From the IMG/VR virus record IMGVR_UViG_3300031963_000072, positions 17,921 to 81,920 of that record: 64,000 nucleotides of DNA. The stretch is one strand, 5' to 3'. The notes under the pieces were generated by a model that made no database searches, was not told the origin of the DNA, and saw only the letters and a program-made list of their open reading frames with translations. How positions within the stretch are numbered: the first letter of the stretch is position 1; every line of letters starts with the position of its first letter. The DNA is from a virus. The translations under genes and the position numbers were made by a program. Positions 5,678 to 45,964 of this stretch are shown here, in pieces.

Positions 5678-6070
5678 TCAGCTTTTGATTAGATCAACGC
5701 CAAGAACACACATCTTATTTTGTCTGTCAATTTCGAGCATCTTCGTTGAAGTAACATCAAAGGGGCCTTCAATACATAGCTCATCATTACCAAAGCGCAG
5801 GTAGAGCACCCTGCAGGAAAGCTTGCTGTTCGAGACTTCTTTAATGACTTGATATGCTTCATTCAGGCTGGTATATATGTCTACCTTTAGACACTGACAA
5901 TTATTTTCTATGGAAATTCCTGACAAATTTCCTAGTATTAGATCGAATTCAAATTCAAGAGCAACGACAAAAGAACTATCACTTGGTTTTTCGGTCACTT
6001 CTTGGTCGAGGTCTTGTATTCTACCTCGCAAAGAATCACTCATAATAAGTCTATCGTCATCTTGAATCAT
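5678..6070 (-). CDS. hypothetical protein
   Basis: 130 aa ORF overlapping PCD stop. Confidence 0.6.
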   Translation of the reverse strand: MIQDDDRLIMSDSLRGRIQDLDQEVTEKPSDSSFVVALEFEFDLILGNLSGISIENNCQCLKVDIYTSLNEAYQVIKEVSNSKLSCRVLYLRFGNDELCIEGPFDVTSTKMLEIDRQNKMCVLGVDLIKS

Positions 6071-6437
6071 GGGATAGACTATACACTACGTCTTTGTATA
6101 GTTCATCTGCATGTCTTGCATACTCGCGATCGAGCTCAGTAATCTGATCTAAATTATGTGTCTGAAGCGTGAGAGTAACTTCTTCATACTGCACAGTGAT
6201 CGTGGCGTGATGACCAGCTTTTTCTTCGTGGATTAAAAGCTGTCTTACGAAGTCATTTCTTAATTCATTAGAAATAAACTTAAATGTCTTAATAAGAGAA
6301 TTATTTGACTTTTTCCATCTGTCAGTCGCTATGACAGGTACGTCTTTCCCACGAGGAGTAACAGGTAGCTTGCCAAAGTCCATTGGCCTTCTTGCTCTAT
6401 CAAGAAACTCTTCGTGAAGACGTCTCAGGTGACTCAT
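6057..6437 (-). CDS. pterin-4-alpha-carbinolamine dehydratase (PCD/PhhB-like)
   Basis: W...LIKTFKF...EEKAGHH..I...V...LQTH...ITELD...A..AD signature; start at ATGA overlap 6437. Confidence 0.8.
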   Translation of the reverse strand: MSHLRRLHEEFLDRARRPMDFGKLPVTPRGKDVPVIATDRWKKSNNSLIKTFKFISNELRNDFVRQLLIHEEKAGHHATITVQYEEVTLTLQTHNLDQITELDREYARHADELYKDVVYSLSHDSR

Positions 6438-7189
6438 AAAATGACACAGCCTCCAACAACCGCAGCCTCGGTGAAAGAGGATCCGTGGGTCCAAACGTTC
6501 TTCTTTCTATCGATCACGCAAGAGCCTCCCTTGAACTTGAGATCGCGCTCCTTGCCTACACGGTTAGAGACAACCACATTAGCGCTTGTCTCCTCGGCGA
6601 GTTCGACCCACGTGGAGTCTGGATAACCATAGTCAGATCCCCAGTTTGTGAGAAGTGCGATCGTGTCCACTGAACCCTTCTTGTAGAAACGCTGTTCGTT
6701 CTTGTAGAACTTATACGAGTCTCTGTAATTGTTCATCACGTCGCGACAGATTAGGACACCTGTGCGACCTGCTCGGGTCACGATGACTGGGTGGAGCTGT
6801 TCAGAAGACTCAGCCCAGAGGTTGTCTGAGCCCCATAGATTGTGCTTCTGGCAATTCCCAACTAATCCGCTTGGTCCAACAATGGCTGCAGAATTATAGA
6901 ATTTTCCTTCACACACCTCAACATATCCGAACACGATGTGTGTATTGAAACGCTGAGCTATAGGAAGGAATGCTTCAGTCTGGTAGCCGTTCTTGTTCTG
7001 CGCGCAGTCCGCGGCTTCTCGCTTGCTGTTGAGAACGTAACCGCTAAGGCACAACTCTGGGAGGACGACCAGAGATGCACCTTTAGCGGCAGCCTCGAAA
7101 ACAAGCTGAGTGGCTGTCTGGAGATTGGCATAAACATCGTGCAATTCGGGCTTGAACTGCACGGCGGCTACGATAGGAGTTTCCATCAT
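6434..7189 (-). CDS. carbon-nitrogen hydrolase (nitrilase superfamily)
   Basis: Glu-Lys-Cys triad: VLPELCLSGY, KHNLW, GVLICRD. Confidence 0.9.
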   Translation of the reverse strand: MMETPIVAAVQFKPELHDVYANLQTATQLVFEAAAKGASLVVLPELCLSGYVLNSKREAADCAQNKNGYQTEAFLPIAQRFNTHIVFGYVEVCEGKFYNSAAIVGPSGLVGNCQKHNLWGSDNLWAESSEQLHPVIVTRAGRTGVLICRDVMNNYRDSYKFYKNEQRFYKKGSVDTIALLTNWGSDYGYPDSTWVELAEETSANVVVSNRVGKERDLKFKGGSCVIDRKKNVWTHGSSFTEAAVVGGCVIL

Positions 7190-9813: not shown

Positions 9814-10325
9814 GCCCCGCCAGCTCCTCCCATGGGACCTGCGGCACCAGCCTTAGGTGCCTGCACTTCATCGTCTTTCTCGGACTCAGACTGTCCTATC
9901 TCTATGCCATATGACTCTTGCAATTCAGCCTTAAATGCCTGAACGGCATCTCCCTCGTAGTTCTCAGAAAGATAGTTGGCAGCCCTGCGAAGTATTGTGT
10001 TCTTGACCTCGAGCAAAGAATCATAATTCTCAACAAGCCTCATGACATCTGAAACGAATGATCCCATGCTGATGTCTTCCAGTTTCGCCTTCTGCGGCTC
10101 TTCGGATTCCTCTTCTTCAGCTTCAGTTAGTTTACGCCAGTCCCATGTCAACTTGTTATGTGTGACTGATTCAAACTTTGCCTTGCTTTCTTCTTTTGCC
10201 TGAGATTCATACTGTGAGAGGTACTTGTCGATCTGAGAATCGACAGAATCTTCACCCGACTCCTTCTTCGGTTCTTCGTCAGCCTCTCGGAGAAGCCGCG
10301 CAAGTTCTTTCAAAGAATTCATCAC
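9810..10325 (-). CDS. hypothetical acidic protein (putative virion protein)
   Basis: MNSLKELARLLREA; LTEA sites. Confidence 0.65.
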   Translation of the reverse strand: MMNSLKELARLLREADEEPKKESGEDSVDSQIDKYLSQYESQAKEESKAKFESVTHNKLTWDWRKLTEAEEEESEEPQKAKLEDISMGSFVSDVMRLVENYDSLLEVKNTILRRAANYLSENYEGDAVQAFKAELQESYGIEIGQSESEKDDEVQAPKAGAAGPMGGAGGA

Positions 10326-11047
10326 TTCACCACCGTTGCGATCGCCTCTGCTCTCTTGAAGCGGTCTTCGATGACCTGCCAGTTGAACTCACGCATCTGG
10401 GCGATGAGGTAGCTCTTCTTGTCGCTGAGGTAATCTTTATAGTATGCGTGCTCCCACATGTCCATGACGATGACTGGATAGAAACCGATAGGAACATCTC
10501 CGCTGTGGTGTGAGACCATGAAGTTAACATACTTCTTCAGGAACATGTGGTAACCGCAAACTGCCCATCCACTGCCTGCTGAAAGGGCACATGCCATGAA
10601 GTCACGTTGCCAGTCATCGAATGTACCAAAGTCTCTCTCAAGCTTGAGGTACGAGAGGGAGTCCATCACAACTTCACTGTGGGGATCAAAACAGTTTGCG
10701 AAGTAAAGCTCATGTAGCCACGTTGCGTTGAGGTTGTATGTCTCGTCGAGCTTGAGAGAACGATAATCAGAATGACGAGAGTTTACCTCTGATCGATTGG
10801 CTGTGTCAAGCTTTGCTGACACCTTGTTCAGAGATTCAATGTAACCCTTATAAAGCTCGCTATGAGAATCTTTGGTCTTCTGAGACACAAACTCTGAAAC
10901 TTGCTTGAATTTCTTCTCTTGAGCGACATAAGACTCATCAAGCTTTTCTAAGGATATCTTCTCTTTCTTAAAGTGATCCTTTATGCTTTTTTTAACAATT
11001 CCGTCGACGTCGACGCCAGCAAGCAAATCCTTCTTATCATATGACAT
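10322..11047 (-). CDS. sod: Fe/Mn superoxide dismutase family protein with N-terminal extension
   Basis: H..LYKGY, LHELYF, DFG.F..W, GSGW, DMWEHAYY; start moved to MSYDK. Confidence 0.88.
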   Translation of the reverse strand: MSYDKKDLLAGVDVDGIVKKSIKDHFKKEKISLEKLDESYVAQEKKFKQVSEFVSQKTKDSHSELYKGYIESLNKVSAKLDTANRSEVNSRHSDYRSLKLDETYNLNATWLHELYFANCFDPHSEVVMDSLSYLKLERDFGTFDDWQRDFMACALSAGSGWAVCGYHMFLKKYVNFMVSHHSGDVPIGFYPVIVMDMWEHAYYKDYLSDKKSYLIAQMREFNWQVIEDRFKRAEAIATVVK

Positions 11048-11309
11048 ATTCGTTCTCCAGTGTGTCTTTGTCAACAATGAATAGCTTTCCCTCGGGTGTC
11101 TTAAGAATGGCATCTCTCGGTCCCACAGAAACTACCGTATATAAAATACCGTTGCGCTTAATTTTTAAGTCGGGTGAAAGAAGTGTCTTTTCTTTTCCGT
11201 CAACATTACCTTTAAAAGTAGCATCAACTTCTTCTGTAAGTCGAGCGAGTCTTGTTTCCCATTCTTCTCTCATAATTCTTATGATATCTGCGTCTTCAAG
11301 CTTCTTCAT
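11037..11309 (-). CDS. hypothetical protein (IIRIMREE motif)
   Basis: 90 aa; ATATTTA 6 nt upstream. Confidence 0.7.
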   Translation of the reverse strand: MKKLEDADIIRIMREEWETRLARLTEEVDATFKGNVDGKEKTLLSPDLKIKRNGILYTVVSVGPRDAILKTPEGKLFIVDKDTLENEYVI

Positions 11310-11739: not shown

Positions 11740-12307
11740 GTATTTTCTGTCTCTGGTCTATGGAGAGGTGGTGTGAATAGCATCTCGGCTCATACAGTTC
11801 TGAACCGCCAACTTCTATTTCTTCTCCTCCTGTCTGTTTCTTGTGCGTATAGTGTGCATCTCTACCACACACAGTACAGACTGCAGTGCATTTCTCGACC
11901 TGGGTTGCCCAAACTAGCATTTTTTCTATTTCGCTAAATGGTTTTCCTGCAGCTGACATTTCAAGAGAAGAAACAACTATTGTGAATCCATAAGTAAAAA
12001 GCCACGTCAAAGCATCTGCTGAACCTGGTATCATAAAAGCTTCATCGACTGCAACAACGTGCGGTTCTTCATCGAGGCTTGTCAGATATTCAAGTATTTC
12101 AGCCCCTGTTTTTACACATACGGCCGGGACCTTCCAACCGCTATGAGTGGCAACTTCACTATAGCTGTATCTATCGTCTATATTTGGCTTAAAGATTACA
12201 ATCTTTTTATGCTGATATTTGTATTTTTCAAGAGTTGAAAGAAGGCGACTTGTTTTTGAAGAAAACATTGGCCCGCAGTAAACAATAAACTCTGGGTTAT
12301 TTAGCAT
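11726..12307 (-). CDS. tdk: thymidine kinase
   Basis: GPMFSSKT, DEA, CTVC...EPRC; start moved to MLNNP. Confidence 0.92.
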   Translation of the reverse strand: MLNNPEFIVYCGPMFSSKTSRLLSTLEKYKYQHKKIVIFKPNIDDRYSYSEVATHSGWKVPAVCVKTGAEILEYLTSLDEEPHVVAVDEAFMIPGSADALTWLFTYGFTIVVSSLEMSAAGKPFSEIEKMLVWATQVEKCTAVCTVCGRDAHYTHKKQTGGEEIEVGGSELYEPRCYSHHLSIDQRQKIHGSQ

Positions 12308-13269
12308 TTCTTTACCTCGTACCCTTTTACGATATCCCAGTTCTCTTCGTACCAAGCTATTGTTCTATCAAGACCTTCCCAAAATTGAACTTCAGGAACA
12401 TATCCAATTTCTGACTTAATCAAAGACAAGTTTGCGTGCGTGTGCATCACATCACCAGGTCGCCAAGGAGCTGTAACATACTTTGCATCTGGATACTTTT
12501 TAATTAAAAAATTAAGAATTTCTATGTTTTTCGTTTTGCTTCCACACGCGACGTTAAAATAATCTCCGTGAAATTCTTTTTCAGAAATGGCTGCCTTGTA
12601 GAAGGCCTGCGTTGCGTTGTCTACGTAACATAAGTCTCTTGATTGTGATCCGTCTCCGTCAGATCTCATGGGTTTTCCGCTTTTTATCGCAGTTAACCAG
12701 GCAGAAACAGCAGTTGAGTAAGGAGATCCGCCAAGCTGTCTAGGACCGAATACATTGAATAATCGCAAGCTTGCAGATTCAAGCTTATAATGCATCCAAT
12801 ATTGAATCAAATAGTCTTCTACGATAGACTTTTGCAAAGCATAGGGTGACTTAGGATTCTTCTGATATTCTTCTGAAGTAGGTAAAGTATCAGCGCCTCC
12901 GTAAACAGAAGAGGAGGAGGCAAATATAAATCTCTTTATATTCTTATTTGTGCAAGCATTGACTAAAGAAAGAGTCTTGGTCACGTTTGTTTCATGTGAC
13001 TCAAGTGGGTGGTCGACAGAAAAAGAAACTCTTGGAATTGCCGCCAAATGAAAAACGTAGTCGTATGTTTTATCCTCAATCTTCCGCAAAACTTCTCTGG
13101 AAGAAAAATCGTCGCAAAGAAATTCTTTGACAGACGGATTGACGTATTCCTTGTAACCGCTAGCCAGATTATCTACTACGGTGACTTCCCAACCATTAGA
13201 AATTAATCTGTCGGTCAAATGACTTCCAATGAATCCTGCACCGCCTGTTACTAATGCTCTTTTTTTCAT
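12301..13269 (-). CDS. NAD-dependent nucleotide-sugar epimerase/dehydratase
   Basis: TGGAGFIG, SSSSVYG, YALQK, NVFGP. Confidence 0.92.
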   Translation of the reverse strand: MKKRALVTGGAGFIGSHLTDRLISNGWEVTVVDNLASGYKEYVNPSVKEFLCDDFSSREVLRKIEDKTYDYVFHLAAIPRVSFSVDHPLESHETNVTKTLSLVNACTNKNIKRFIFASSSSVYGGADTLPTSEEYQKNPKSPYALQKSIVEDYLIQYWMHYKLESASLRLFNVFGPRQLGGSPYSTAVSAWLTAIKSGKPMRSDGDGSQSRDLCYVDNATQAFYKAAISEKEFHGDYFNVACGSKTKNIEILNFLIKKYPDAKYVTAPWRPGDVMHTHANLSLIKSEIGYVPEVQFWEGLDRTIAWYEENWDIVKGYEVKKC

Positions 13270-13611: not shown

Positions 13612-14607
13612 TCAAGTTTTCCAGAAGCTGTAGAGATTCTTCTCTACTTCATAAGGCATTAACTTGACAGGACGCTGAGGCTGTGATGCAGCCCAGACAA
13701 ACATTTTCTCTATTAGATCTTCGAAGTTTGTGTCATCTTTAAAGTTGAGATGTTCAATGGCTTTAGAATGATCACAATAGGCAATCTGAACTTCATCTCT
13801 TGCCTCAAGATGAACTACGCTTGTAGTATAGCCAAGTTTTTGAGCAACAGAGCAGAACATCTTTGAAGCCTCTAGAATCGATATCTTAGAATCCGCGCCA
13901 ATATTGTAGATCTCTCTATCACCTAGTGTCATCAAAGATTCAAAAGGCTCCATGTAATACTTGATGTCAGAAAAAGACCTGATCTGGGAACCGTCACCGT
14001 AGATGGTAATGGGCTGACCAGACAATGTTTGTCTAATCCAGATTCCAAGTACATTCCTGTATTTATCCCAGATATTCTGGTATATGCCGAACACGTTGTG
14101 AGGTCTTACTACCGAGTAGTTGAGATCAAATAAGCGAGAAGCGTGCTTCAGATCGAGCTCAACAGCGTATTTTGCAATTCCATACGGATCTTCAGGAGAG
14201 GGAACCATATCCTCTGTGTAAGGTGAGCTACATTCACTCCCGTAGACATCCATCGAAGAAGAAAATATTATTTTCTTTACACCGCCATTAATGCAACTGT
14301 TGATAACATTTGCAGAAGCAACCACATTGTTGGTGTAATTGAAGCTTCTAATAAAAGGACTCAATCCCACGGCAGCATATGCAGCAAAATGATAGACATA
14401 GTCTGGTTTTGTGTCTTTGAAAATCTGTCCCACATTTTTTTGATCCGCTAAATTTACCTGGTGGAAAACCAGGCGTGAATCAACGTTTTCAACATAACCT
14501 CCGCTAAGATCATCAATTCCAAAAACTTCGTGACCCTTGTCCAGCAGATGACGAGTTAGGTGAGATCCCAATAGACCAGCGCAACCTGTTACAATTATTC
14601 TAGACAT
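13612..14607 (-). CDS. NAD-dependent nucleotide-sugar epimerase/dehydratase
   Basis: TGCAGLLG, SSMDVYG, YGIAK, HNVFG. Confidence 0.92.
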   Translation of the reverse strand: MSRIIVTGCAGLLGSHLTRHLLDKGHEVFGIDDLSGGYVENVDSRLVFHQVNLADQKNVGQIFKDTKPDYVYHFAAYAAVGLSPFIRSFNYTNNVVASANVINSCINGGVKKIIFSSSMDVYGSECSSPYTEDMVPSPEDPYGIAKYAVELDLKHASRLFDLNYSVVRPHNVFGIYQNIWDKYRNVLGIWIRQTLSGQPITIYGDGSQIRSFSDIKYYMEPFESLMTLGDREIYNIGADSKISILEASKMFCSVAQKLGYTTSVVHLEARDEVQIAYCDHSKAIEHLNFKDDTNFEDLIEKMFVWAASQPQRPVKLMPYEVEKNLYSFWKT

Positions 14608-14615
14608 GAAATGAA

Positions 14616-15527
14616 TTATATCTTGTCGTTACGAACGTGGAGACTATTATAGCTTACGTCTAGAAGAATTTTACTAGGTTTCCAACTAAAAAATCTTGCA
14701 ATTTCTGTAGAAAGATGAGACAAAAATCTCAAATCGGGAGAACCATTTCCCACAGAATCTGTGCTTCTTAATTGACAAATGACTTTTAGATTGCCTTGTC
14801 TGTTAAGAAAATGTATTGAAGATATACACGTATCGCTAGAATAATAAAAGCGACGCGTGTCAAGATTCTGAGGAGTTTTATAAGGATTGTCTCCGGCAGT
14901 CTCTCTAGAGATGATTTCTTTACACTTGCTCAATATCTCCTTAAAGTATTGAGCTTCATGCTCAATTTCTAGACAGTCTACGTCGCTGTACTCTGGGGGT
15001 AGATTAAACCTTGCTCTAAACTGAACTTCTGCTTTCTCGTCCAATTTAGTCCACATTCTACTGAGAGAGCCAAAGACGGAAGGCGTAAGTTGCTCGTACT
15101 GATTTAGTGACTTCAAAGCCCTAGAAGTTAGAGATTCTCTATCGAGTTCTTCCCTGATGACAAGAACGTTGGGCAAAAAAGAAATCTTCTTGACTTCATC
15201 TTCAAAAATGTCGTGGAGGCGAACAAGGGAATCCTTGTCTTGAAAATCATCTCCTCTAACGCTAAGACGATCTATTAAAACATCTTTTGCAGGTAATAGA
15301 ACGATAAAGAAATTGTTTCCATCACACAGCTCTTCTCTAAGCGAATTTCTCAGATCTTCAGCAGCTGGCCTGTCGTACAGTCTAGCATAGCATAGCGTAG
15401 ACAGATACGACCTGTCTCTAATATTCCTTATGTATGAAGTTGCCTTATTGAGGTTGGAATATAGAGAAGTTTTTCCGCTACAATCAGGGCCTTCTATAAC
15501 AACGTAATTGACCGGTAAGAATGTCAT
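14616..15527 (-). CDS. dNMP kinase fused to truncated thymidylate-synthase/dCMP-hydroxymethylase-like domain
   Basis: IEGPDCSGKT, DRS (kinase); DTRR..C..SIHF...RSTD.......D...SLH (ThyA fold); ATGA-coupled to dnaE. Confidence 0.75.
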   Translation of the reverse strand: MTFLPVNYVVIEGPDCSGKTSLYSNLNKATSYIRNIRDRSYLSTLCYARLYDRPAAEDLRNSLREELCDGNNFFIVLLPAKDVLIDRLSVRGDDFQDKDSLVRLHDIFEDEVKKISFLPNVLVIREELDRESLTSRALKSLNQYEQLTPSVFGSLSRMWTKLDEKAEVQFRARFNLPPEYSDVDCLEIEHEAQYFKEILSKCKEIISRETAGDNPYKTPQNLDTRRFYYSSDTCISSIHFLNRQGNLKVICQLRSTDSVGNGSPDLRFLSHLSTEIARFFSWKPSKILLDVSYNSLHVRNDKI

Positions 15528-18500
15528 GCCATTTGCCTCATCTTGAAAATAGATGTAGAAAATCCCCACTGTGCGTCGTGCTGAGCCTTGCAAACCCACA
15601 AAGTATAGGGAAGAATATCATCTTGTGGGGTACCCCATACTCTAAGCCTTGCAGTTCTGAATGTATTGTCAAGTGTCTTGATTGCATAAAAGACTTTTCC
15701 GTTCTTTGTCTTCTTCTTCTCGACAGAAGAAGCGCAGAACCAGCCTATGCCCTCAGATCCTGCAGGAATATCGTGAATACTGTAGACCTCTTTTTCCTCC
15801 ACTTTCCGCATAACGTCCGGTGGAAACATTAAATCGCCGTCGACAGTTGAAGTCAGTTCGTATCTCACGCTTATCTTTTCAAATCTCTCCCAGTCTTCAA
15901 CAGTCGAAAGTTCTTCTAGTAGAAAATCGAGTATAGGCATCACAGGCTCACCAAGCTTCTCCTTCTTCTTTAGCTGAGAAGCAGTGAGACCGTAATAGCC
16001 CTTTCTAAGGGTCTCATAGTTATCGCCCTCTGTCAGGGCCATCAAGACCTGCCTATGGTTTGAAACCCTCCCGTACTGAAAGTCTTCAAGGGATTCAAGC
16101 CCTTCGATCTTACAAAGAGATGTTAGAACCGTCTTGTTAATCTTACTCGGCTTCCATTCTCCGTTATCGTTGAACAGAATGTCGCTAAGATTCTTGTAGG
16201 GTCTTGAGTAAATGATTTCGTCGACTGCGGCCGCACCGATACCTTTCACCGATGTAAGCGGCGGAACAAATGCTTGGGCTTCGTCAGAATATTGCCACTC
16301 TTTGCCAGAATAGTTGATATCGATCTTAGAGAAGGCGTACCCAATCGTCTTAATCTCAGAGATTGCCTTGGCTAGTGCGTCGGGATTACTGTTTTCCGAC
16401 TGTAGAATTGTAGCGAGCCATTCTTTCTCGTAATGGGTGTGTAGCCATGCTGCATAGTAGGAGTCAAGTGCATAGGCAACCGAGTGAGACTTGTTAAAGC
16501 CGTACAGAGAGAAGAACTCGATCTTATCGAACAGCTCGTGCATCATCTTTTCGGGAAGATTATGAAGGCGTTTCGCACCTTCAACAAACTTCTCACGGAG
16601 TGCTGCACGTTCGCCACCCTTCTTGTCTGCCGTGTCGAGAGACTTCTTGACAAGAGTTTTTCTCATTTGGTCGGCTTCACCCTCAGTGAATCCTGAAAGT
16701 TCCATTGCAAGAAGCATGAATTGCTCCTGGAATGTGATGAATCCTCTCGTTGCGCCGAGAACCTTCTCGATGAGAGGGTGATCGTACTTGATCTTCGATA
16801 GATCCTTACCAGCATCGACGTACATGTTGTGCACGTTCGCCTTGAGAGGACCAGGTCGATAGATTGCTGTTACCGCAGCAAGTTCGTCGATGTTATTAGG
16901 CTTCGCCTGCATGCAGAATTTGCGTGCGCCGCTGGCGGTAAATTGGAAAACTCCAACGAAGTTTCCTTTATGGTAAACATGCTCCCAGACCTTGGGGTCG
17001 TCCTGCTTCACGTATCGGCAGTTGAGATGCTTGTCAAAGAATGCTTTGGTGTCTGTAAATGAAGGATTAGGATTACCCTCTTTGACAAGGATGCGTCTAA
17101 TGCAGTTCTCTACGTCCTTGAGAAGCGTGAGACCCAAGAAGTCGAACTTAAGGAATCCGTTCTCCTCGAGGTTTCTGAAGTTCATGCCTTCAGACCAGGG
17201 AGTTTGTAGTTCACCACGGACACCAATGATTGGCATCGTAGCAGCCAAGTCATCAGGATCTGCAACGAGAACGCCACCTGCATGTCGACCTACAGATCGA
17301 TTCTGCATGAAGAGCGTCTCAACGTGAGCAGCGACGTCGGGATACTTCTCCATGAACGCACGGTATTTCGGAGAATGCTTCATGCAGTCCTCATGCTTCA
17401 GGACGAAAACAGACTTTTCAGTATCGTCATCTCGGGCAAGGTTCATCACCTCATCCTGAAGCGGACCTGTCATCTCGTTAACTTCCTCGAAAGGAACACT
17501 GTAGATCTTAGCGATGTCCTTGACAAGCGACTTAAGCTTCAAGGTATTGAAGTTGGAGACGGGTATGACGGCATCGTCGCCGAACAATTCTCGAGCTGCG
17601 TCGATCAGAGCATCTCGGTCACCAGCATCGGAGTCAATGTCAGGCCAAGCTACTTTCTGTCGATTGAGAAAGCGTCCCCAAAGCAAATTGTAGGGGATGG
17701 GATCGATCTGCGTAATACCAAGAAGAAAATTGACAAGAGATCCTGCGCCGCTGCCTCTTCCTGGGCCGAGGAGTGTCTTTGCCTCGGCCTTGTGGAAGAT
17801 CTTATACATCGTCACGAAGTAAGAAGCGTGCCCAAGGAACTTGATGTCAGACAACTCCATCTTCGCACGTTCAACGTACTCAGGCTTGTCAGCGAGACCT
17901 TCGCGGACGAGTCCTTCCTTGACAAGTTCTGTGAGCTGCTGGAATGTAGACTTCTCTGGTGTATCTAAGTGAGGTAGTTTCGCCTTCGTAGGAATCCAGG
18001 TGTCTTCGCACTCCTGCCAGGCGAGGTCGTGAGTACGCTCGATGGAATCTCTAACTAATTCTTCTGTCCCTCTGTAGAAGTCGTACTGTTCGTAGGACGC
18101 CTTGTACTCGTCCCACATCTGCGAGGCATTTTTGGGGTACAGCTCACACTTGAGATCTTCAAATTTAGGAAGAGCAGACTGTTCTAGCTTGGCACCCATC
18201 CACCCAAGCTTCTTGTACAGCTCGCGAGCCTGCCATTTAGAAGGATCCGGGTAGTGAGAATCGCAGGTTGAAACGAGCGGGATACCTGTCTTCCTGTGAA
18301 GTTCTATGAGATACTTGTTAACAGTGTGCTGTTTTTCAAGCTTATTGAATTGCAGCTCGAGGAAAAAGTTGTTACGCCCGACAGACTCTACAAATCTGTC
18401 TGCTACATTCTCAATGTCATTGAGAATCTCGATCTCAGACTTACCGTGAGCCTCACCGAGCAGAATTTTGGAAGAAAAATAGCCGCCGAGGCAGGCGGTC

Positions 18501-19120
18501 GACCAGATGATGTCGCTTCCATACTTCGACAAGAGATCAAAGTCAATTCTTGGGTATCGATAGAATCCATCCTTGTATGACAGTTTCACAAGTCTGTAGA
18601 GGTTTGCGAGACCGTTCTTGTTTTTTGCGACTGCCACCAGGTGGTAACGTCGTTGCCAATCTTTCGATTTAACGTCGACCGTCTTGGTCTCATTCTCGTC
18701 CTCTACGACAAGACCTCCCTGTTCTTCTTCGTCTGCATCGACGTCTGTAGGAGTCTTTGCTCTCTTCTCTGCCTCAGCAGCGGTCTTGGCGTCTTTGATG
18801 GACTGTTTATGAGCTTCGTAGTCGATCGACCACTGAGACAGAGATGGAACGAAGTAGAACTCAACACCGTAAAGCTGCCTATACTTAATGCCCTTCTTGA
18901 CAACCTTGGCAGCAGCGTTTTTAGCGTGGGCGTGTCCGTTGCCGTTGCCGTGATCTGTCAAAGCCCAAGCATCCATGCCTTGAGACTCTGAGGTGACAAA
19001 TGAGATATGGGATTCAGGATAGCCGAGTCCGTCGAAAGTGCTAAATCCTGAGTGGGAGTGTAAACCAACAAATCGTGTCGGCGGCCTGATTTCATCCAGC
19101 GTCTTGATGAGACTTGACAT
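15524..19120 (-). CDS. dnaE: DNA polymerase III alpha subunit (family C, DnaE-like)
   Basis: PHP motifs LHSHS.FS..DG, TDHG; GRGSGAGS, PDIDSD, HAGG, KFDFLGL, YGFNKSHS; start moved to MSSLI. Confidence 0.96.
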   Translation of the reverse strand: MSSLIKTLDEIRPPTRFVGLHSHSGFSTFDGLGYPESHISFVTSESQGMDAWALTDHGNGNGHAHAKNAAAKVVKKGIKYRQLYGVEFYFVPSLSQWSIDYEAHKQSIKDAKTAAEAEKRAKTPTDVDADEEEQGGLVVEDENETKTVDVKSKDWQRRYHLVAVAKNKNGLANLYRLVKLSYKDGFYRYPRIDFDLLSKYGSDIIWSTACLGGYFSSKILLGEAHGKSEIEILNDIENVADRFVESVGRNNFFLELQFNKLEKQHTVNKYLIELHRKTGIPLVSTCDSHYPDPSKWQARELYKKLGWMGAKLEQSALPKFEDLKCELYPKNASQMWDEYKASYEQYDFYRGTEELVRDSIERTHDLAWQECEDTWIPTKAKLPHLDTPEKSTFQQLTELVKEGLVREGLADKPEYVERAKMELSDIKFLGHASYFVTMYKIFHKAEAKTLLGPGRGSGAGSLVNFLLGITQIDPIPYNLLWGRFLNRQKVAWPDIDSDAGDRDALIDAARELFGDDAVIPVSNFNTLKLKSLVKDIAKIYSVPFEEVNEMTGPLQDEVMNLARDDDTEKSVFVLKHEDCMKHSPKYRAFMEKYPDVAAHVETLFMQNRSVGRHAGGVLVADPDDLAATMPIIGVRGELQTPWSEGMNFRNLEENGFLKFDFLGLTLLKDVENCIRRILVKEGNPNPSFTDTKAFFDKHLNCRYVKQDDPKVWEHVYHKGNFVGVFQFTASGARKFCMQAKPNNIDELAAVTAIYRPGPLKANVHNMYVDAGKDLSKIKYDHPLIEKVLGATRGFITFQEQFMLLAMELSGFTEGEADQMRKTLVKKSLDTADKKGGERAALREKFVEGAKRLHNLPEKMMHELFDKIEFFSLYGFNKSHSVAYALDSYYAAWLHTHYEKEWLATILQSENSNPDALAKAISEIKTIGYAFSKIDINYSGKEWQYSDEAQAFVPPLTSVKGIGAAAVDEIIYSRPYKNLSDILFNDNGEWKPSKINKTVLTSLCKIEGLESLEDFQYGRVSNHRQVLMALTEGDNYETLRKGYYGLTASQLKKKEKLGEPVMPILDFLLEELSTVEDWERFEKISVRYELTSTVDGDLMFPPDVMRKVEEKEVYSIHDIPAGSEGIGWFCASSVEKKKTKNGKVFYAIKTLDNTFRTARLRVWGTPQDDILPYTLWVCKAQHDAQWGFSTSIFKMRQMA

Positions 19121-19126
19121 GGTGTT

Positions 19127-29032: not shown

Positions 29033-29221
29033 CTATTTAGTGGACAACTTCATGTCTTTGGCCCACGAAGCTATCTTTTTCTTGGCGTCGTCTCTCACAA
29101 GAACGCTCTTTTTCTTAAATGCAGGATCGTCTAGAAGTTCTTCCGTATAGGATTCTTCAGGCTGTGAACCACTAATAGCCTTTCTAACAATCTCTCGCAG
29201 CTGTCCTAGAGTAATCTTCAT
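29033..29221 (-). CDS. small protein with MKITLGQLREIVRK motif
   Basis: 62 aa; ATAGTTA 6 nt upstream. Confidence 0.7.
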   Translation of the reverse strand: MKITLGQLREIVRKAISGSQPEESYTEELLDDPAFKKKSVLVRDDAKKKIASWAKDMKLSTK

Positions 29222-29757
29222 GAATAGTAACTATTAAACTGAAAGAAAGAAGACCAGTCAGGGTGCCAAGTTCCAGTAGGACTCACATCCCAGAAATGAG
29301 TCATTAACGGGATAGAAGGCGGCTTCCTCAAATGCATCCCAGACTCAGAAAGAAGTCTCGATCCTTTTCTAATATTGCACTTTTTACAAGCAGAAACACA
29401 GTTCTTCCAGTCTGTAGTTCCGCCTTTAGAACGCGGAAGCACGTGGTCGATCGTGATGGTCTTGTAGTCCAGATTTATTCCGCAATATTGACATTGCCAG
29501 TTATCACGGTTAAATAAGACTCTTTTTCTAAAACGTGGAGTAGAGTACTTGCGTGTCACCCGTTCGAAGAGCCGAACGGTAGCAGGAACCCTATAGGCAC
29601 TACCGGGAGTCGTGTAGACATCATCCCACGCGCTAGGAGATTCTCCCACCGTAATTACCTCAGCCCTGCATTTAAACAGCAGATTGAGAGCACGAATAGA
29701 CGATACGAAGTTAAGTGGTGTCCAATCAGCATTGAGTAGGAGAACGTTTCTTTTCAT
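29218..29757 (-). CDS. HNH endonuclease
   Basis: RD...CQYCG...TIDHVLPRSKGG...W.N.V.AC..CN..KG; start moved to MKRNVLLLN. Confidence 0.9.
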   Translation of the reverse strand: MKRNVLLLNADWTPLNFVSSIRALNLLFKCRAEVITVGESPSAWDDVYTTPGSAYRVPATVRLFERVTRKYSTPRFRKRVLFNRDNWQCQYCGINLDYKTITIDHVLPRSKGGTTDWKNCVSACKKCNIRKGSRLLSESGMHLRKPPSIPLMTHFWDVSPTGTWHPDWSSFFQFNSYYS

Positions 29758-29819
29758 TTCAGCTCCTAAGATCGGCGGCTTTGATGTAAATATCTTTCCG
29801 CTGATCGGCATCGAGGCCC

Positions 29820-30605
29820 TCATCGCTTTCTTTTCACGGTCCTCAAGTTTTCTACTGCATCATCAAAAATCTTTTCATCTTTCTCTATGCATATCCAGTT
29901 ACGCTTCAGGCCTTGAGCTGCATAAGCAGCTGTCATGGATCCACCAAAGGGATCCATGATCCAGTCACCCTCATTGGTGTTTGCGAGGATAGGGATCTCA
30001 AAAACCTGGAGTGGTTTCTGAGTGGGATGCACCTTTCCTGAAAAGATCTCAGTGATATCTGTCCAGACGTTTGTGCGCCTGTAGAACTCGCTCTTAGCGG
30101 GATACTTGGCGTTGTAACCAGCATATCCTCGCTTCGTGTCGAGGTAGGGAACATTGAAGGTAGCAGGCTTCTTGATGTTACCCTTCACCATGTACAGAAC
30201 TTCCTCACGGGTGGAGAGATAGTTGTGTTGTACTCCGTAGGCCCGCTTCTTGTGCCAAGTGATGAGGTTGGAGATTCGCATGGGCGTTTCGTACTCAACG
30301 CGGTGTGCATACTCAAAGAAAGGGCGGAAACCCGGAATACCGTATCCACCCCACACGTACATGGCACCACCGTCCATGATTAAATCGGAGAATGTGTTGG
30401 TCCATTCCACCATCCAATTTACGAACTTTTTCTGTCCGTCGTGCCACTTGTCCCACTCCTCATCGATGATGTTGCCGTAAGGAGGATCCGTGACGACTGC
30501 CTTCAGTTTGGAATCGCCGAGAACGTTCTTGATCTCATCGATCACCTCTTGTGAGGTGCAGTCGCCACAGATCGCCAGGCCGTCTTCGAATTTCTCAATC
30601 TTCAT
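29820..30605 (-). CDS. site-specific DNA methyltransferase (N6-A/N4-C, beta class)
   Basis: TDPPY, HPTQKP, MDPFGGS. Confidence 0.92.
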   Translation of the reverse strand: MKIEKFEDGLAICGDCTSQEVIDEIKNVLGDSKLKAVVTDPPYGNIIDEEWDKWHDGQKKFVNWMVEWTNTFSDLIMDGGAMYVWGGYGIPGFRPFFEYAHRVEYETPMRISNLITWHKKRAYGVQHNYLSTREEVLYMVKGNIKKPATFNVPYLDTKRGYAGYNAKYPAKSEFYRRTNVWTDITEIFSGKVHPTQKPLQVFEIPILANTNEGDWIMDPFGGSMTAAYAAQGLKRNWICIEKDEKIFDDAVENLRTVKRKR

Positions 30606-33617: not shown

Positions 33618-34208
33618 TTATGCCGGAATGTTTCTTGTAGTCTTTAATACCACGATTATTTCTGTAAACACAGATTCTTTTGGACGGTCTGACGCAACCA
33701 CATGCGCCTCCTTAGGATGTTTGTTTACCCAGTCAGCGTATAGCTTTCTGACATTCTCCTGAAGCTTTGCGTCTTTCTCGTAAACATCTTCAGGTTCATG
33801 TTTGTGAGGCTCACCAAGAAGCACGAGAGTGAAGTCAGGTTTTCTCAACTTTTTATAAAAGTAATTCACGAATCCGTCATCAACTCCAGCGGCTTTGCCG
33901 TAGACAGTAGTTGACAGACTCCACCTGTCGAAGATGAGATAGTCATACACATGATCAAGATCAGAGAGTTCTTTCGTCTGGAACAACCATCTATTTAGAA
34001 ACTGGGTCAACTGGAATACTCTAGGAAACTTCTTGGCATGTCCTTTCTCAAGCATCCAATAAATGGCCTTGTAGGTCATCTCATCGTGAATGGGAACTTC
34101 GACAACCTTTGCCTTCTTGCCGCACTGCCAAAGATACTCGCACAGGAGCGCGCTCTGTGTAGCTTTACCAACCCTATCAGGTCCCTCAATCACAATGATC
34201 TTACTCAT
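33618..34208 (-). CDS. tmk: thymidylate kinase
   Basis: IEGPDRVGKATQ, FDRW..S...YG, KPD. Confidence 0.9.
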   Translation of the reverse strand: MSKIIVIEGPDRVGKATQSALLCEYLWQCGKKAKVVEVPIHDEMTYKAIYWMLEKGHAKKFPRVFQLTQFLNRWLFQTKELSDLDHVYDYLIFDRWSLSTTVYGKAAGVDDGFVNYFYKKLRKPDFTLVLLGEPHKHEPEDVYEKDAKLQENVRKLYADWVNKHPKEAHVVASDRPKESVFTEIIVVLKTTRNIPA

Positions 34209-41996: not shown

Positions 41997-42069
41997 GCGC
42001 TTTTTTATCCTTTCATCTGTAACAGGTGCCTTTTTAGTTAAAAAACCTGCTCCGAAACCCGTTGCCATT

Positions 42070-45927: not shown

Positions 45928-45934
45928 GCACATA

Positions 45935-45964
45935 ATGATAATCAATCTTCTTTGAGATGTTCAA
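45935..45964 (-). promoter_or_regulatory. class A promoter TTGAAC-N18-TATCAT
   Basis: Recurrent motif; 7 nt before ATG. Confidence 0.65.

What the first reader, a model, noticed from the sequence alone, without database searches (positions are those of the whole stretch)
14616..15527. dNMP kinase fused to a minimal thymidylate-synthase domain with the cytosine-specifying Asp
Seen: the C-terminal ~130 aa keep TRR, a Cys, RSTD and SLH, and the residue 11 positions after the R of RSTD is Asp (RSTDSVGNGSPD). Established: that position is Asn177 in dUMP-specific E. coli ThyA and Asp in dCMP-specific T4 gp42. The loop between RR and Cys is short and the N-terminal part of the ThyA fold seems absent. 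Inference: a dCMP-modifying enzyme, perhaps with altered cofactor use, channelling product to its own kinase. It is translationally coupled (ATGA) to dnaE.
Basis: partly seen in the sequence, partly recalled or inferred. Interest (0 to 1): 0.8.

Follow-up and report, generated by a model that had tools for sequence, protein, structure and literature searches.

The report
Phage kinase fused to mini thymidylate-synthase
An uncultured freshwater phage encodes, overlapping the end of its DNA polymerase gene, one protein that joins a thymidylate-kinase-like nucleotide kinase to a stripped-down thymidylate-synthase-type enzyme with a cytosine-type active site, so it probably makes an altered cytosine nucleotide by chemistry that is still unknown.

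Summary
Window 14616-15527 (- strand) encodes a 303-aa protein. Residues 1-147 are a YorR/thymidylate-kinase-like P-loop kinase. Residues 148-303 are a real but miniature thymidylate-synthase (TS) fold: VIA-align Z 11.0 to AfhB 9iqc, 10.6 to ThyA, 8.7 to T4 dCMP hydroxymethylase, and the next unrelated chain scores 5.7.

Cys234, Arg254/Ser255 and Asp265 have exactly the Cys-to-Arg (20) and Arg-to-Asn177/Asp179 (11) spacing of E. coli ThyA and T4 gp42. Across 73 distinct domain sequences the Asp is kept in 73 and the Cys in 72.

What is missing is internal segments and the C-terminal about 50 residues.

Pfam does not recognise the domain. The fusion occurs in at least 118 IMG/VR contigs, and dnaE lies upstream in all 80 loci fetched. 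Split versions, with separate kinase and mini-TS genes, exist, including in the cultured Geobacillus phage GR1.

dCMP as substrate, the C5 chemistry and the cofactor are inferred, not shown.

The scan has already reported this family on other DNA.

The parts
14616..15527 (-). Whole gene: 303-aa kinase / mini-TS fusion (stop TAA at 14616-14618)
   Evidence: Full-length AF2 model has pLDDT 94.5 and pTM 0.90. 218 homologues, mostly about 300 aa.
15087..15527 (-). Residues 1-147: YorR / thymidylate-kinase-like P-loop kinase domain
   Evidence: VIA-align: YorR 3kb2 Z 14.7 (rmsd 2.6, 140 aligned); deoxyadenosine kinase 2jaq Z 14.0; thymidylate kinases about Z 13. PHROG 761 'thymidylate kinase' E 2.8e-12. 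Family profile to YorR E 2.3e-12 and to TMPK E 0.005. Pfam Thymidylate_kin scores only 15.7 bits against a cut-off of 27.
15468..15491 (-). P-loop G13-P-D-C-S-G-K-T20
   Evidence: D15, G18 and K19 are invariant in 33 aligned homologues.
15408..15416 (-). D38-R39-S40 motif (position of the DR[Y/H] motif of thymidylate kinases; the comparison is from recall)
   Evidence: Invariant in alignment A1. Aligned with the DRF motif of YorR.
15240..15269 (-). LID-like segment R87...R91-G92-D93...Q96
   Evidence: R87, R91, G92, D93 and Q96 are invariant. Aligns to RLRVRGDEY of YorR.
14619..15086 (-). Residues 148-303: miniature thymidylate-synthase-fold domain
   Evidence: Domain model pLDDT 90.5. VIA-align wide: 9iqc Z 11.0 (rmsd 3.2, 143 aligned); ThyA 3ix6 Z 10.6; MilA Z 9.8; T4 dCH Z 8.7; the next unrelated chain is Z 5.7. 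Foldseek top hits are 9iqu at 7.8e-6 and 1b5d at 1.1e-5.
14955..14957 (-). Glu191, aligned with ThyA Glu58 (low-confidence part of the alignment)
   Evidence: E in 72 of 73 distinct domains. hhalign mapping.
14880..14882 (-). Tyr216, aligned with ThyA Tyr94
   Evidence: Y in 58 of 73. hhalign mapping.
14850..14855 (-). Arg225-Arg226, equivalent to ThyA Arg126-Arg127 (phosphate binding, supplied in trans in TS dimers)
   Evidence: R in 73/73 and 71/73. hhalign. In the homodimer model R225 of one copy touches R254/S255 of the other.
14826..14828 (-). Cys234, equivalent to the catalytic nucleophile Cys146 of ThyA and Cys148 of T4 gp42
   Evidence: C in 72/73. Aligned to the Cys of T4 dCH and AfhB by HMMER and hhalign.
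14757..14768 (-). Arg254-Ser255-Thr256-Asp257, equivalent to ThyA R166-S167-C168-D169
   Evidence: R 72/73 and S 72/73. The position equivalent to D169 varies: N 34, D 26, E 13. Spacing checked.
14733..14735 (-). Asp265, equivalent to ThyA Asn177 and T4 gp42 Asp179 (pyrimidine-specificity residue)
   Evidence: D in 73/73. Same +11 spacing from Arg in ThyA, gp42, gp48 and this protein. Role of the residue: Lee et al. 2026 (PMC13326640, section 24 read) and the title of PDB 6l18.
14637..14639 (-). His297, equivalent to ThyA His207; the protein ends 6 residues later
   Evidence: H in 72/73. hhalign..
15524..19138 (-). Context: dnaE-type polymerase (1204 aa) whose stop overlaps the fusion's ATG (ATGA at 15524-15527)
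   Evidence: A DnaE homologue lies upstream in 80 of 80 related loci.
19851..20834 (-). Context: divergent second ThyX (327 aa), possibly functionally linked
   Evidence: Pfam Thy1 E 9e-18. 47% identical to the ThyX that directly precedes the stand-alone mini-TS in Geobacillus phage GR1. Motif RHRAGTFAAQCTGDR carries Cys where the canonical copy at 34205-34864 has Ser.
19206..19667 (-). Context: nucleoside 2-deoxyribosyltransferase-like gene, co-conserved
   Evidence: Pfam E 6.4e-13. Present in 44 of 80 loci within the flanks. 37% identical to the GR1 homologue.
13612..14607 (-). Context: NAD-dependent NDP-sugar epimerase/dehydratase starting 8 nt after the fusion's stop; its link to the fusion is unproven
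   Evidence: Pfam Epimerase E 1.3e-47. No NCBIfam equivalog cut-off reached. An epimerase lies within 5 kb downstream in 50 of the 70 loci with enough flank.

Best explanation
The gene encodes a bifunctional, probably homodimeric enzyme of pyrimidine deoxynucleotide metabolism.

Proposed mechanism:
1. The C-terminal mini-TS domain binds a cytosine 5'-mononucleotide, most likely dCMP. The phosphate is held by Arg254/Ser255 and by Arg225/Arg226 from the partner subunit. The base is read by Asp265.
2. Cys234 attacks C6, as every TS-family enzyme does, and activates C5 for a substituent. Which one is unknown: hydroxyl, hydroxymethyl or something else.
3. About 100 residues of the usual folate-binding scaffold are missing. 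The donor or cofactor is therefore probably not bound as in ThyA.
4. The N-terminal thymidylate-kinase-like domain then converts the modified dNMP to the dNDP. This plays the role of T4 gp1 or RB69 gp159.
5. The product supplies the dnaE-type polymerase whose gene overlaps this one.

Shown here: the two folds, conservation of the catalytic and binding residues, the predicted TS-like dimer, and the conserved gene linkage in both fused and split forms.

Inferred: the substrate, the reaction, the cofactor, the order of the two steps, and that the product ends up in phage DNA.
For: Fold:
- In the unbiased search of 48,161 chains, the 7 chains with Z of 8 or more are all TS-family enzymes. The best is 9iqc at Z 11.0, and the next unrelated chain is Z 5.7.
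- Foldseek agrees.

Sequence:
- The C-domain profile hits T4 dCH at E 5.6e-4 and AfhB at E 9e-3. These are the two dCMP-specific branches, and they rank ahead of any ThyA.
- hhalign gives E 5e-8.

Residues:
- Spacing is identical to ThyA, gp42 and gp48.
- In 73 distinct domains: Asp265 73, Arg225 73, Cys234 72, Arg254 72, Ser255 72, His297 72, Glu191 72.
- The same invariant set appears in 16 stand-alone relatives.

Cytosine reading:
- The Asn177-to-Asp rule is stated in Lee et al. 2026 (section 24 read).
- An acidic residue sits 2-3 positions before the Cys: Asp232 here; at -3, D in 34 of 73; at -2, D or E in 56 of 73. gp42 (D) and gp48 (E) have this too; ThyA has Leu.

Kinase:
- YorR Z 14.7, thymidylate kinases about Z 13, PHROG 761.
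- P-loop, DRS and LID residues are invariant.

Dimer:
- ipSAE 0.88 against a best control of 0.21. That mark was reached by 20 of 30 proteins solved as pairs and 1 of 23 solved as single chains. The runs agree in at least 94% of contacts and the partner pLDDT is at least 91.
- The interface uses the TS sheet, and R225 reaches R254/S255 of the other copy.
- Solved TS dimers exist, so this pass may only reflect likeness to them.

Linkage:
- 118 relatives in IMG/VR. DnaE is upstream in 80 of 80 loci; TK in 67 and dCMP deaminase in 68.
- Split forms keep the partnership. GR1 has a separate 145-aa kinase (E 2e-8) and a 151-aa mini-TS (E 1.6e-11) next to ThyX and DnaE. A separate kinase gene lies near the mini-TS in 2 of 5 stand-alone loci.

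Not redundant with ordinary dTMP synthesis: the window has a separate canonical Tmk, ThyX and dUTPase.
Against: - No chemistry was measured.
- The domain lacks the C-terminal about 50 residues and several internal segments of ThyA. By the low-confidence N-terminal part of the hhalign alignment it also lacks a counterpart of Arg21 and of the Trp80/Trp83 region. A one-carbon or flavin cofactor site is therefore not evident.
- The diagnostic D169N of 5-hydroxy-dCMP synthases is not present here: the window has Asp257. That position is N, D or E across the family, so one shared chemistry is not guaranteed.
- Tyr216 (equivalent to Tyr94) is kept in only 58 of 73.
- ThyA Tyr209, which contacts the 3'-OH (role from recall), is not conserved. 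Deoxyribose versus ribose preference is therefore open.
- One relative (L072) has lost Cys, the second Arg, Arg-Ser and His.
- No DNA glycosyltransferase or dCTP-specific pyrophosphatase was identified among the window ORFs I scanned.
- The kinase domain scores below the Pfam and NCBIfam cut-offs. Its nearest structure, YorR, has no assigned function.
Confidence: 0.55

Rival explanations
1. Two-component variant. The mini-TS supplies only the nucleotide site and the Cys nucleophile. The co-conserved divergent ThyX flavoprotein supplies the cofactor chemistry (reduced flavin, or a flavin-carried one-carbon unit). The fused kinase phosphorylates the product.
For: - In Geobacillus phage GR1 the divergent ThyX gene ends on the base where the stand-alone mini-TS gene starts (5820-6788 and 6788-7243 in L084).
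- That ThyX is 47% identical to the window's divergent ThyX. The kinase, mini-TS and Ndt are only 30-37% identical, and DnaE 22%.
- The divergent ThyX lies within the flanks of 33 of 80 loci. A ThyX-like gene is present in 3 of 5 stand-alone loci.
- It has Cys where the canonical copy in the same window has the motif Ser.
- The window has a separate canonical ThyX.
- The mini-TS lacks most of the usual cofactor scaffold.
Against:
- No TS-fold enzyme is known to me to borrow a cofactor from another protein (recall).
- In the window the two genes are 4.3 kb apart, with Ndt and dnaE between them.
- The ThyX-like genes in the stand-alone loci are only 24-27% identical to the divergent ThyX and may be ordinary ThyX.
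Confidence: 0.17
2. Cofactor-free chemistry. The Cys adds to C6 of a cytosine nucleotide only to promote a reaction that needs no carbon or oxygen donor, for example hydrolytic deamination, C5-H exchange, or removal of a C5 group from a host-modified nucleotide. The kinase recycles the product.
For: - The cofactor-binding scaffold is lost while the nucleotide-binding and nucleophile residues stay invariant.
- The residue equivalent to D169 is free to vary between N, D and E. In ThyA that residue contacts the folate (recall).
Against: - A zinc dCMP deaminase is already encoded nearby in 68 of 80 loci, so a second deaminase is redundant.
- Glu191 and Tyr216, whose ThyA equivalents (Glu58, Tyr94) serve post-addition steps in TS chemistry (role from recall), are largely kept.
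- No precedent known to me (recall).
Confidence: 0.1
3. Non-catalytic module. The mini-TS is a nucleotide-binding, dimerising or regulatory appendage of a dNMP kinase (a pseudo-enzyme), used for substrate selection or allostery.
For: - The domain is reduced to about 60% of a TS.
- One relative (L072) has lost Cys, Arg-Ser and His yet keeps the domain.
- The predicted dimer interface runs through this domain.
Against: - The nucleophile Cys is kept in 72 of 73 distinct sequences, together with Glu191 (72 of 73). Binding alone would not require these.
- The domain also exists on its own as 144-228-aa proteins with the same invariant residues.
Confidence: 0.1
4. Ordinary thymidylate synthase plus thymidylate kinase: dUMP to dTMP to dTDP.
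For: TS fold plus a thymidylate-kinase-like fold. Weak TMPK family matches.
Against: - Asp, not Asn, sits at the Asn177 position in 73 of 73.
- The folate scaffold is largely missing.
- Pfam Thymidylat_synt matches only 2 of 50 domains at E up to 1.
- The same window already has a canonical ThyX, Tmk and dUTPase.
Confidence: 0.04

Closest known systems
T4 gp42 dCMP hydroxymethylase (PDB 1b49/1b5d/6a9a/6l18), working with the separate gp1 dNMP kinase
   Same: - TS fold (Z 8.7; Foldseek 1.1e-5). It is the best PDB sequence hit of the domain profile (E 5.6e-4).
- Cys, RR and R-S are kept, and Asp sits at the Asn177 position with the same 20 and 11 spacings.
- An acidic residue lies just before the Cys.
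- The logic of modifying dCMP and then phosphorylating it matches.
   Different: - gp42 is 246 aa against about 156 here.
- The RR-to-Cys loop is 24 residues in gp42 and 8 here. gp42 has 30 residues after the active-site His, against 6 here.
- gp42 uses methylene-tetrahydrofolate (PDB 6a9a is its ternary complex with dCMP and THF). The mini domain shows no evident folate scaffold.
- The kinase here is fused and thymidylate-kinase/YorR-like, not a separate protein.
Flavin/O2-dependent 5-hydroxy-dCMP synthases: phage HY126 AfhB (PDB 9iqu, 9iqc), RB69 gp48, DLP3 gp80, with their cognate dNMP kinases (Lee et al. 2026, PMC13326640)
   Same: - Top structural match: Z 11.0, rmsd 3.2, 143 aligned; Foldseek 7.8e-6.
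- Profile hit at E 9e-3.
- Already shortened TS proteins (217-238 aa) that end soon after the SAH motif.
- Asp at the Asn177 position.
- They need a dNMP kinase for incorporation (section 24 read).
   Different: - Their signature Asn at the D169 position is absent in this protein (Asp257). It is present in only 34 of 73 family members.
- Glu at the L143 position is Ser231 here.
- About 75-90 more residues are missing.
- Z 11.0 against 10.6 for ThyA is a tie, so the fold does not assign the branch.
- Flavin binding is untestable here.
Bacillus SPbeta prophage YorR (PDB 2axp/3kb2) and thymidylate kinases
   Same: Best structural and sequence match of the N-terminal domain: Z 14.7 and E 2.3e-12 with the family profile. 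The P-loop EGPDC..K, the DR(S/F) motif and RL.VRGDE are shared.
   Different: YorR is a 173-aa stand-alone protein with no function in its PDB name. There is no TS-like domain attached.
Geobacillus phage GR1 (OK896991.1) split module
   Same: The same parts occur as separate genes in one cluster: Ndt, a 145-aa P-loop kinase (30% identity, E 2e-8), the divergent ThyX (47%, E 5e-97), a 151-aa mini-TS (HMM E 1.6e-11; Cys, R-S, Asp and His kept) and a DnaE/PHP polymerase.
   Different: - Not fused.
- RR is R-Q.
- The D169 position is Asn.
- The cluster also holds a glycosyltransferase and a nitroreductase-like flavoprotein, which I did not find in the window.
- My search found no paper on GR1.

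Membership tests
Thymidylate synthase / dCMP hydroxymethylase superfamily (Pfam PF00303) | TS alpha/beta fold | tested here: met
   VIA-align wide: the 7 chains with Z of 8 or more are all TS-family enzymes (Z 11.0 to 8.7); the next chain is Z 5.7. Foldseek PDB and BFVD agree.
Thymidylate synthase / dCMP hydroxymethylase superfamily (Pfam PF00303) | Catalytic Cys nucleophile at the ThyA Cys146 position | tested here: met
   Cys234 aligns by HMMER and hhalign. Kept in 72 of 73.
Thymidylate synthase / dCMP hydroxymethylase superfamily (Pfam PF00303) | Phosphate-binding Arg-Arg (126/127) and Arg-Ser (166/167) | tested here: met
   R225 73/73, R226 71/73, R254 72/73, S255 72/73. No counterpart of Arg21 in the hhalign alignment, in its low-confidence part.
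Thymidylate synthase / dCMP hydroxymethylase superfamily (Pfam PF00303) | Match to the Pfam model at its gathering score | tested here: not met
   No PF00303 hit for the protein at E up to 10. Only 2 of 50 domain sequences match at E up to 1, best 0.064. No PF00303 match in the 81.9-kb record.
Thymidylate synthase / dCMP hydroxymethylase superfamily (Pfam PF00303) | Obligate homodimer through the large sheet, with Arg-Arg donated in trans | tested here: inconclusive
   The model gives ipSAE 0.88 against a best control of 0.21, with R225 contacting R254/S255 of the other copy. This is a prediction that may be recalled from solved TS dimers.
Thymidylate synthase / dCMP hydroxymethylase superfamily (Pfam PF00303) | Folate-binding scaffold (Trp80/Trp83 region, C-terminal lid) | tested here: inconclusive
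   The alignments leave about 100 ThyA residues without a counterpart, including everything after residue 213. The N-terminal half of the alignment has low confidence, and no ligand modelling was possible.
dCMP-specific branch (T4 gp42-type hydroxymethylases) | Asp at the ThyA Asn177 position | tested here: met
   Asp265, 73 of 73. Spacing identical to gp42 Asp179.
dCMP-specific branch (T4 gp42-type hydroxymethylases) | Acidic residue at the ThyA Leu143 position (3 before the Cys) | tested here: inconclusive
   The window has Ser231 at -3 and Asp232 at -2. In the family, -3 is D in 34 of 73 and -2 is D or E in 56 of 73. The loop is shortened, so equivalence is uncertain.
dCMP-specific branch (T4 gp42-type hydroxymethylases) | Uses methylene-tetrahydrofolate to make 5-hydroxymethyl-dCMP | not testable with these tools
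   Needs an enzyme assay.
5-hydroxy-dCMP synthases (AfhB / RB69 gp48) | Asn at the ThyA Asp169 position (diagnostic per Lee et al. 2026, section 28 read) | tested here: not met
   The window has Asp257. The family has N 34, D 26, E 13 of 73. RB69 gp48 has Asn186.
5-hydroxy-dCMP synthases (AfhB / RB69 gp48) | Flavin cofactor and O2-dependent hydroxylation | not testable with these tools
   Needs purification, spectroscopy and an assay.
Thymidylate kinase-like dNMP kinases (PF02223 / TIGR00041) | P-loop, DR(Y/H)-type motif and LID arginines on a TMPK-like fold | tested here: met
   The fold matches thymidylate kinases at about Z 13 and YorR at Z 14.7. P-loop, D38-R39-S40 and R87/R91 are invariant. 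The motif names are from recall.
Thymidylate kinase-like dNMP kinases (PF02223 / TIGR00041) | Match to the curated family models at their cut-offs | tested here: not met
   PF02223 scores 15.7 bits against 27. TIGR00041 scores 23.6 bits against 83.25.

The most novel reading that the evidence does not exclude
The mini-TS is a cofactor-site-less catalytic core that works with the co-conserved, Cys-bearing divergent ThyX flavoprotein as a new two-component pyrimidine C5-modifying system. With the fused kinase it supplies a dedicated DnaE polymerase with a so-far undescribed modified cytosine, in a widespread clade of large aquatic phages and in Geobacillus phage GR1.
Probability: 0.15. Interest if true: 0.9.

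Novelty: new variant of a known kind. Interest (0 to 1): 0.7.

Why it matters
TS-superfamily enzymes are the entry point of almost all known phage pyrimidine hypermodifications: hmC, hmU, 5mC and, since 2025-26, 5-hydroxy-C (Lee et al. 2026, discussion read).

This family would be a further branch, and the smallest one. It keeps only the nucleotide site and the nucleophile. It is hard-wired to a kinase and to a DnaE-type polymerase. Pfam and NCBIfam do not see it. It is nevertheless common: 437 cluster representatives at E up to 1e-3 and at least 118 IMG/VR contigs. The window's DNA recurs in freshwater metagenomes of several studies.

If it makes a modified cytosine, a large group of abundant aquatic phages has non-canonical DNA. 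That bears on restriction and CRISPR evasion, on sequencing bias in viromes, and on enzyme discovery for DNA chemistry.

It is directly testable, because the cultured phage GR1 carries the same parts as separate genes.

Tried and rejected
- Single-sequence searches of the C-domain gave nothing useful. Pfam at E up to 10 gave no TS hit. phmmer against the PDB gave only a chance phytase match. tblastn against 50,697 phage records gave only E of 1 or more; one of those weak hits, GR1, proved real once tested with the family HMM.
- A full-length tblastn against phages found only a partial kinase match in Pelagibacter phage HTVC119P.
- The pdb_via search with the full-length model was filled by kinases and said nothing about the C-domain. 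I therefore folded the domain alone.
- I tested whether the D/N/E residue at the D169 position goes with the neighbouring sugar epimerase. It does not. An epimerase lies within 5 kb in N-type 15 of 30, D-type 21 of 26 and E-type 14 of 14 loci. I therefore do not claim a glycosylated 5-hydroxy-C pathway.
- The epimerases reach no NCBIfam equivalog cut-off.
- No glycosyltransferase was seen among the window ORFs scanned. Not all ORFs were scanned.
- tblastn of the stand-alone mini-TS proteins: P0231 found nothing, and the GR1 protein found only itself.
- A BFVD hit to a 151-aa Synechococcus phage S-CBWM1 protein (E 2.5e-3) was not followed up.
- Sequencing runs: all holders are kept as contigs, so no read-level signal of base modification could be sought. 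Parts of the stretch without RNA-library cover mean nothing.
- Literature: searches found no paper describing a kinase/TS-like fusion. One search found AfhB/HY126 only through Lee et al. 2026. One search found nothing on GR1. The He et al. paper on AfhB is not in the library; I know it only from the PDB titles and the passage in Lee et al.
The list of nine metaviromic TS homologues tested by Lee et al. may be there, and I cannot exclude that one of them belongs to this mini family.
- Interdomain channelling could not be examined, because model coordinates are not returned.
Full report
**What is there.** Window 14616-15527 on the minus strand is one open reading frame of 303 codons. Its ATG (15525-15527) overlaps the TGA stop (15524-15526) of a 1204-aa dnaE-type polymerase gene in the sequence ATGA. 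Eight bases after its TAA stop, the next gene begins: an NAD-dependent sugar epimerase/dehydratase. The longer GTG-started frame is not the gene. Homologues begin at the ATG, and two with longer N-termini simply read into the dnaE overlap.

**The N-terminal domain (residues 1-147).**
- Single-sequence family matches are weak: Pfam AAA_28 and Thymidylate_kin fall below their cut-offs, and TIGR00041 scores 23.6 bits against 83.25.
- PHROG 761 'thymidylate kinase' matches at 2.8e-12.
- A 33-sequence family profile hits the SPbeta prophage protein YorR at 2.3e-12 and thymidylate kinases at 0.005-0.04.
- The full-length AlphaFold model is confident: pLDDT 94.5, pTM 0.90.
- Residues 2-147 of that model align to YorR at Z 14.7 (rmsd 2.6, 140 residues), to a deoxyadenosine kinase at Z 14.0, and to many thymidylate kinases at about Z 13.
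- The P-loop (D15, G18, K19), D38-R39-S40 and the LID-like R87/R91-G92-D93/Q96 are invariant in the alignment.
- I read it as a thymidylate-kinase-like dNMP kinase of the YorR type. Its substrate is not established.

**The C-terminal domain (residues 148-303).**
- I folded it alone with the family alignment (pLDDT 90.5) and searched without Foldseek against 48,161 chains.
- The seven chains with Z of 8 or more are all thymidylate-synthase-family enzymes:
  - AfhB 9iqc: Z 11.0, rmsd 3.2, 143 aligned
  - Brucella ThyA: Z 10.6
  - Burkholderia ThyA: Z 10.2
  - Elizabethkingia ThyA: Z 9.8
  - MilA: Z 9.8
  - Arabidopsis DHFR-TS: Z 9.6
  - T4 dCMP hydroxymethylase: Z 8.7
- The next chain, which is unrelated, scores Z 5.7.
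- Foldseek ranks AfhB and T4 dCH first. Viral TS and dCH models lead in BFVD.
- The alignment spans residues 14-230 of AfhB and -1 to 213 of ThyA. The N-terminal helix, the first strand and the long helix of the TS fold are therefore present.
- The domain is small because internal segments and the last about 50 residues of ThyA are missing.
- At sequence level, a C-domain-only profile of 50 sequences reaches T4 dCH at E 5.6e-4 and AfhB at 9e-3 in the PDB.
- hhalign against ThyA, gp42 and gp48, all fetched here, gives probability 92.9% and E 5e-8.
- Pfam's Thymidylat_synt model does not see the family: no hit for this protein, and 2 of 50 domains at E up to 1.

**Residues.**
- In E. coli ThyA, T4 gp42, RB69 gp48 and this protein, the Cys-to-Arg distance is 20 and the Arg-to-Asn177/Asp distance is 11. 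The positions are C146/R166/N177, C148/R168/D179, C163/R183/D194 and C234/R254/D265.
- Conservation across 73 distinct domain sequences (the window plus 72 from 79 complete loci; one truncated locus dropped, duplicates collapsed):

| Residue | Kept in |
|---|---|
| Asp265 | 73 |
| Arg225 | 73 |
| Arg226 | 71 |
| Cys234 | 72 |
| Arg254 | 72 |
| Ser255 | 72 |
| His297 | 72 |
| Glu191 | 72 |
| Tyr216 | 58 |

- By hhalign, these residues correspond to ThyA Asn177, Arg126/127, Cys146, Arg166/Ser167, His207, Glu58 and Tyr94. The last two lie in the low-confidence half of the alignment.
- The position equivalent to ThyA Asp169 is Asp here. Across the family it is N 34, D 26 and E 13.
- The one sequence that breaks the pattern, L072, has lost the Cys, the second Arg, Arg-Ser and His together. 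It looks like a decayed copy.
- According to Lee et al. 2026 (sections 24 and 28 read), Asp at position 177 marks dCMP-using enzymes. An acidic residue at position 143 goes with non-methyl products, and Asn at 169 marks the flavin-dependent 5-hydroxy-dCMP synthases.
- This protein meets the first criterion. It is ambiguous on the second (Ser231 at -3, Asp232 at -2). It does not meet the third.

**Quaternary structure.**
- Two copies co-fold with ipSAE 0.88 against a best control of 0.21. That mark was reached by 20 of 30 proteins solved as pairs and by 1 of 23 solved as single chains.
- The runs agree in at least 94% of contacts, and the partner pLDDT is at least 91.
- The interface runs through the TS sheet (165-169, 223-255, 292-297). 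It places Arg225 of one chain against Arg254/Ser255 of the other. This is the trans arrangement of TS active sites.
- TS dimers are solved, so the pass may be memory. I use it only as consistency.

**Distribution and linkage.**
- The word-indexed search found 218 homologues, nearly all about 300 aa.
- An exhaustive profile search with the C-domain alone found 437 cluster representatives at E up to 1e-3, 168 at up to 1e-10 and 76 at up to 1e-30. Most are about 300-aa fusions. A set of 164-228-aa proteins carries only the mini-TS, with the same invariant Glu, Tyr, Arg, Cys, Ser, Arg, Arg-Ser, Asp and His.
- The ESM Atlas also points to small viral clusters of 144-195 aa. In one of them, 12% of members carry PF00303.
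- One stand-alone member hits Bacteroides phage genes annotated as dCMP hydroxymethylase at E 2e-4.
- In IMG/VR, 118 stretches encode a relative, and 80 loci were fetched. By tblastn with the window's proteins, these genes lie within the flanks:

| Neighbour | Loci of 80 |
|---|---|
| DnaE homologue (upstream) | 80 |
| dCMP deaminase | 68 |
| Thymidine kinase | 67 |
| SOD-like protein | 56 |
| Epimerase | 55 |
| Nucleoside deoxyribosyltransferase-like gene | 44 |
| Divergent ThyX | 33 |

- Split forms keep the same company. In 5 loci with a stand-alone mini-TS, a YorR-like kinase gene lies beside it in 2, a DnaE in 3 and a ThyX-like gene in 3.
- The cultured Geobacillus phage GR1 has one cluster holding, in order:
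  - Ndt
  - an HD protein
  - a glycosyltransferase
  - a 145-aa P-loop kinase (E 2e-8 to the fusion's kinase)
  - a nitroreductase-like protein
  - a 322-aa ThyX, 47% identical to the window's divergent ThyX
  - a 151-aa mini-TS starting on the ThyX stop (HMM E 1.6e-11)
  - a PHP/DnaE polymerase
- The lead to GR1 came both from my weak hit and from earlier notes of this scan. I tested it myself.

**Context in the window.**
- The window belongs to an 81.9-kb IMG/VR record estimated at 25% complete.
- Besides the block around dnaE, it has a canonical thymidylate kinase (33618-34208), a canonical ThyX (34205-34864), a dUTPase (42396-42824) and a ribonucleotide reductase. The fusion is therefore not needed for ordinary dTTP synthesis.
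- A MazG-like NTP pyrophosphohydrolase lies at 25295-25672. Its specificity is unknown.
- The same DNA is held by 17 DNA runs, mostly labelled freshwater, dated 2017-2025. Ten of them may be the source of this DNA or filed with it.
- Contigs from three metatranscriptome libraries lie on the gene. Two of them bridge the dnaE/fusion junction: X20 at 15412-15699 exactly, and X19 at 15439-15619 with 3 differences. This is compatible with co-transcription. It does not prove it, because DNA can be present in such libraries.

**Interpretation.**
- The best-supported reading is a bifunctional enzyme. The mini-TS uses the TS-type Cys addition on a cytosine mononucleotide to change C5. The kinase passes the product toward the triphosphate pool of the adjacent polymerase. 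This is the logic of T4 gp42 plus gp1, and of RB69 gp48 plus gp159.
- What remains open is the chemistry. The scaffold that holds folate in ThyA is largely gone. The flavin-type signature is absent in this member. No partner was tested.
- The tight, twice-independent association with a conserved, Cys-bearing divergent ThyX makes a two-component mechanism the most interesting alternative.
- A non-catalytic role is unlikely given the conservation of the nucleophile. An ordinary TS/Tmk role is contradicted by the Asp and by the separate canonical genes.

**Novelty.**
- My literature searches found no paper describing this fusion or the mini-TS family.
- The closest published work is Lee et al. 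2026 on full-size 5-hydroxy-dCMP synthases.
- The scan itself has already reported this family on other genomes. I treat those notes as leads only.
- I class it as a new variant of a known kind: a new, minimal, kinase-fused branch of the TS superfamily.

Noticed in passing
window 19851-20834 (-), compared with 34205-34864 (-): The window has two ThyX genes. The 327-aa copy near dnaE is divergent (Pfam Thy1 E 9e-18; TIGR02170 35.6 bits against 87.9). Its motif reads RHRAGTFAAQCTGDR, with Cys where the canonical 219-aa copy (KHRIGVSVNGESARY) has the motif Ser. It also has a roughly 100-aa C-terminal extension. It is 47% identical to the ThyX of Geobacillus phage GR1.
   Followed up: partly
L072 (IMG/VR locus), about 10424-10876: One relative of the fusion has lost the catalytic Cys (to Asn), the second Arg of RR, Arg-Ser (to Lys-Gln) and the His (to Tyr) together, while keeping the domain. 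It looks like a decayed or repurposed copy.
   Followed up: no
window 40992-42068 (-): A 358-aa protein matches Pfam Volactin (PF25216) at E 9.7e-68, a family named after an archaeal actin homologue (origin of the name from recall). This is an actin-like protein in a phage replication module.
   Followed up: no
window 10322-11113 (-): A 263-aa protein carries an Fe/Mn superoxide dismutase C-terminal domain (E 1.8e-19). It is conserved in the same gene block in 56 of 80 related loci.
   Followed up: no
window 45942-47150 (-): A 402-aa ORF has a weak family-A DNA polymerase match (PF00476, E 1.1e-8, just above cut-off) in addition to the DnaE-type polymerase. An HD-domain protein lies next to it at 45340-45945.
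   Followed up: no
window 29218-30605 (-): An HNH endonuclease (29218-29823) overlaps an N6/N4 DNA methyltransferase (29820-30605, PF01555 E 8e-31). The phage therefore also methylates DNA in the ordinary way.
   Followed up: no
window 12301-13269 and 13612-14607 (-): Two NDP-sugar epimerase/dehydratase genes sit inside the nucleotide-metabolism block, with a 105-aa gene of no family between them. At least one epimerase is within 5 kb of the fusion in 50 of the 70 loci with enough flank. Their presence does not track the D/N/E residue of the mini-TS, and no glycosyltransferase was found among the window ORFs scanned.
   Followed up: partly
L084 (Geobacillus phage GR1) 2371-3750 and 5105-5704: The GR1 cluster with the split module also encodes a 459-aa glycosyltransferase and a nitroreductase-like flavoprotein. 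If they belong to the pathway, they hint at a flavin-dependent step and a sugar on the base.
   Followed up: no
BFVD hit A0A3G1L3Q7 (Synechococcus phage S-CBWM1, 151 aa): A small uncharacterised protein of a cultured cyanophage matches the mini-TS model (Foldseek E 2.5e-3, TM-score 0.52 normalised by the target's length). It may be another culturable carrier of a stand-alone mini-TS.
   Followed up: no
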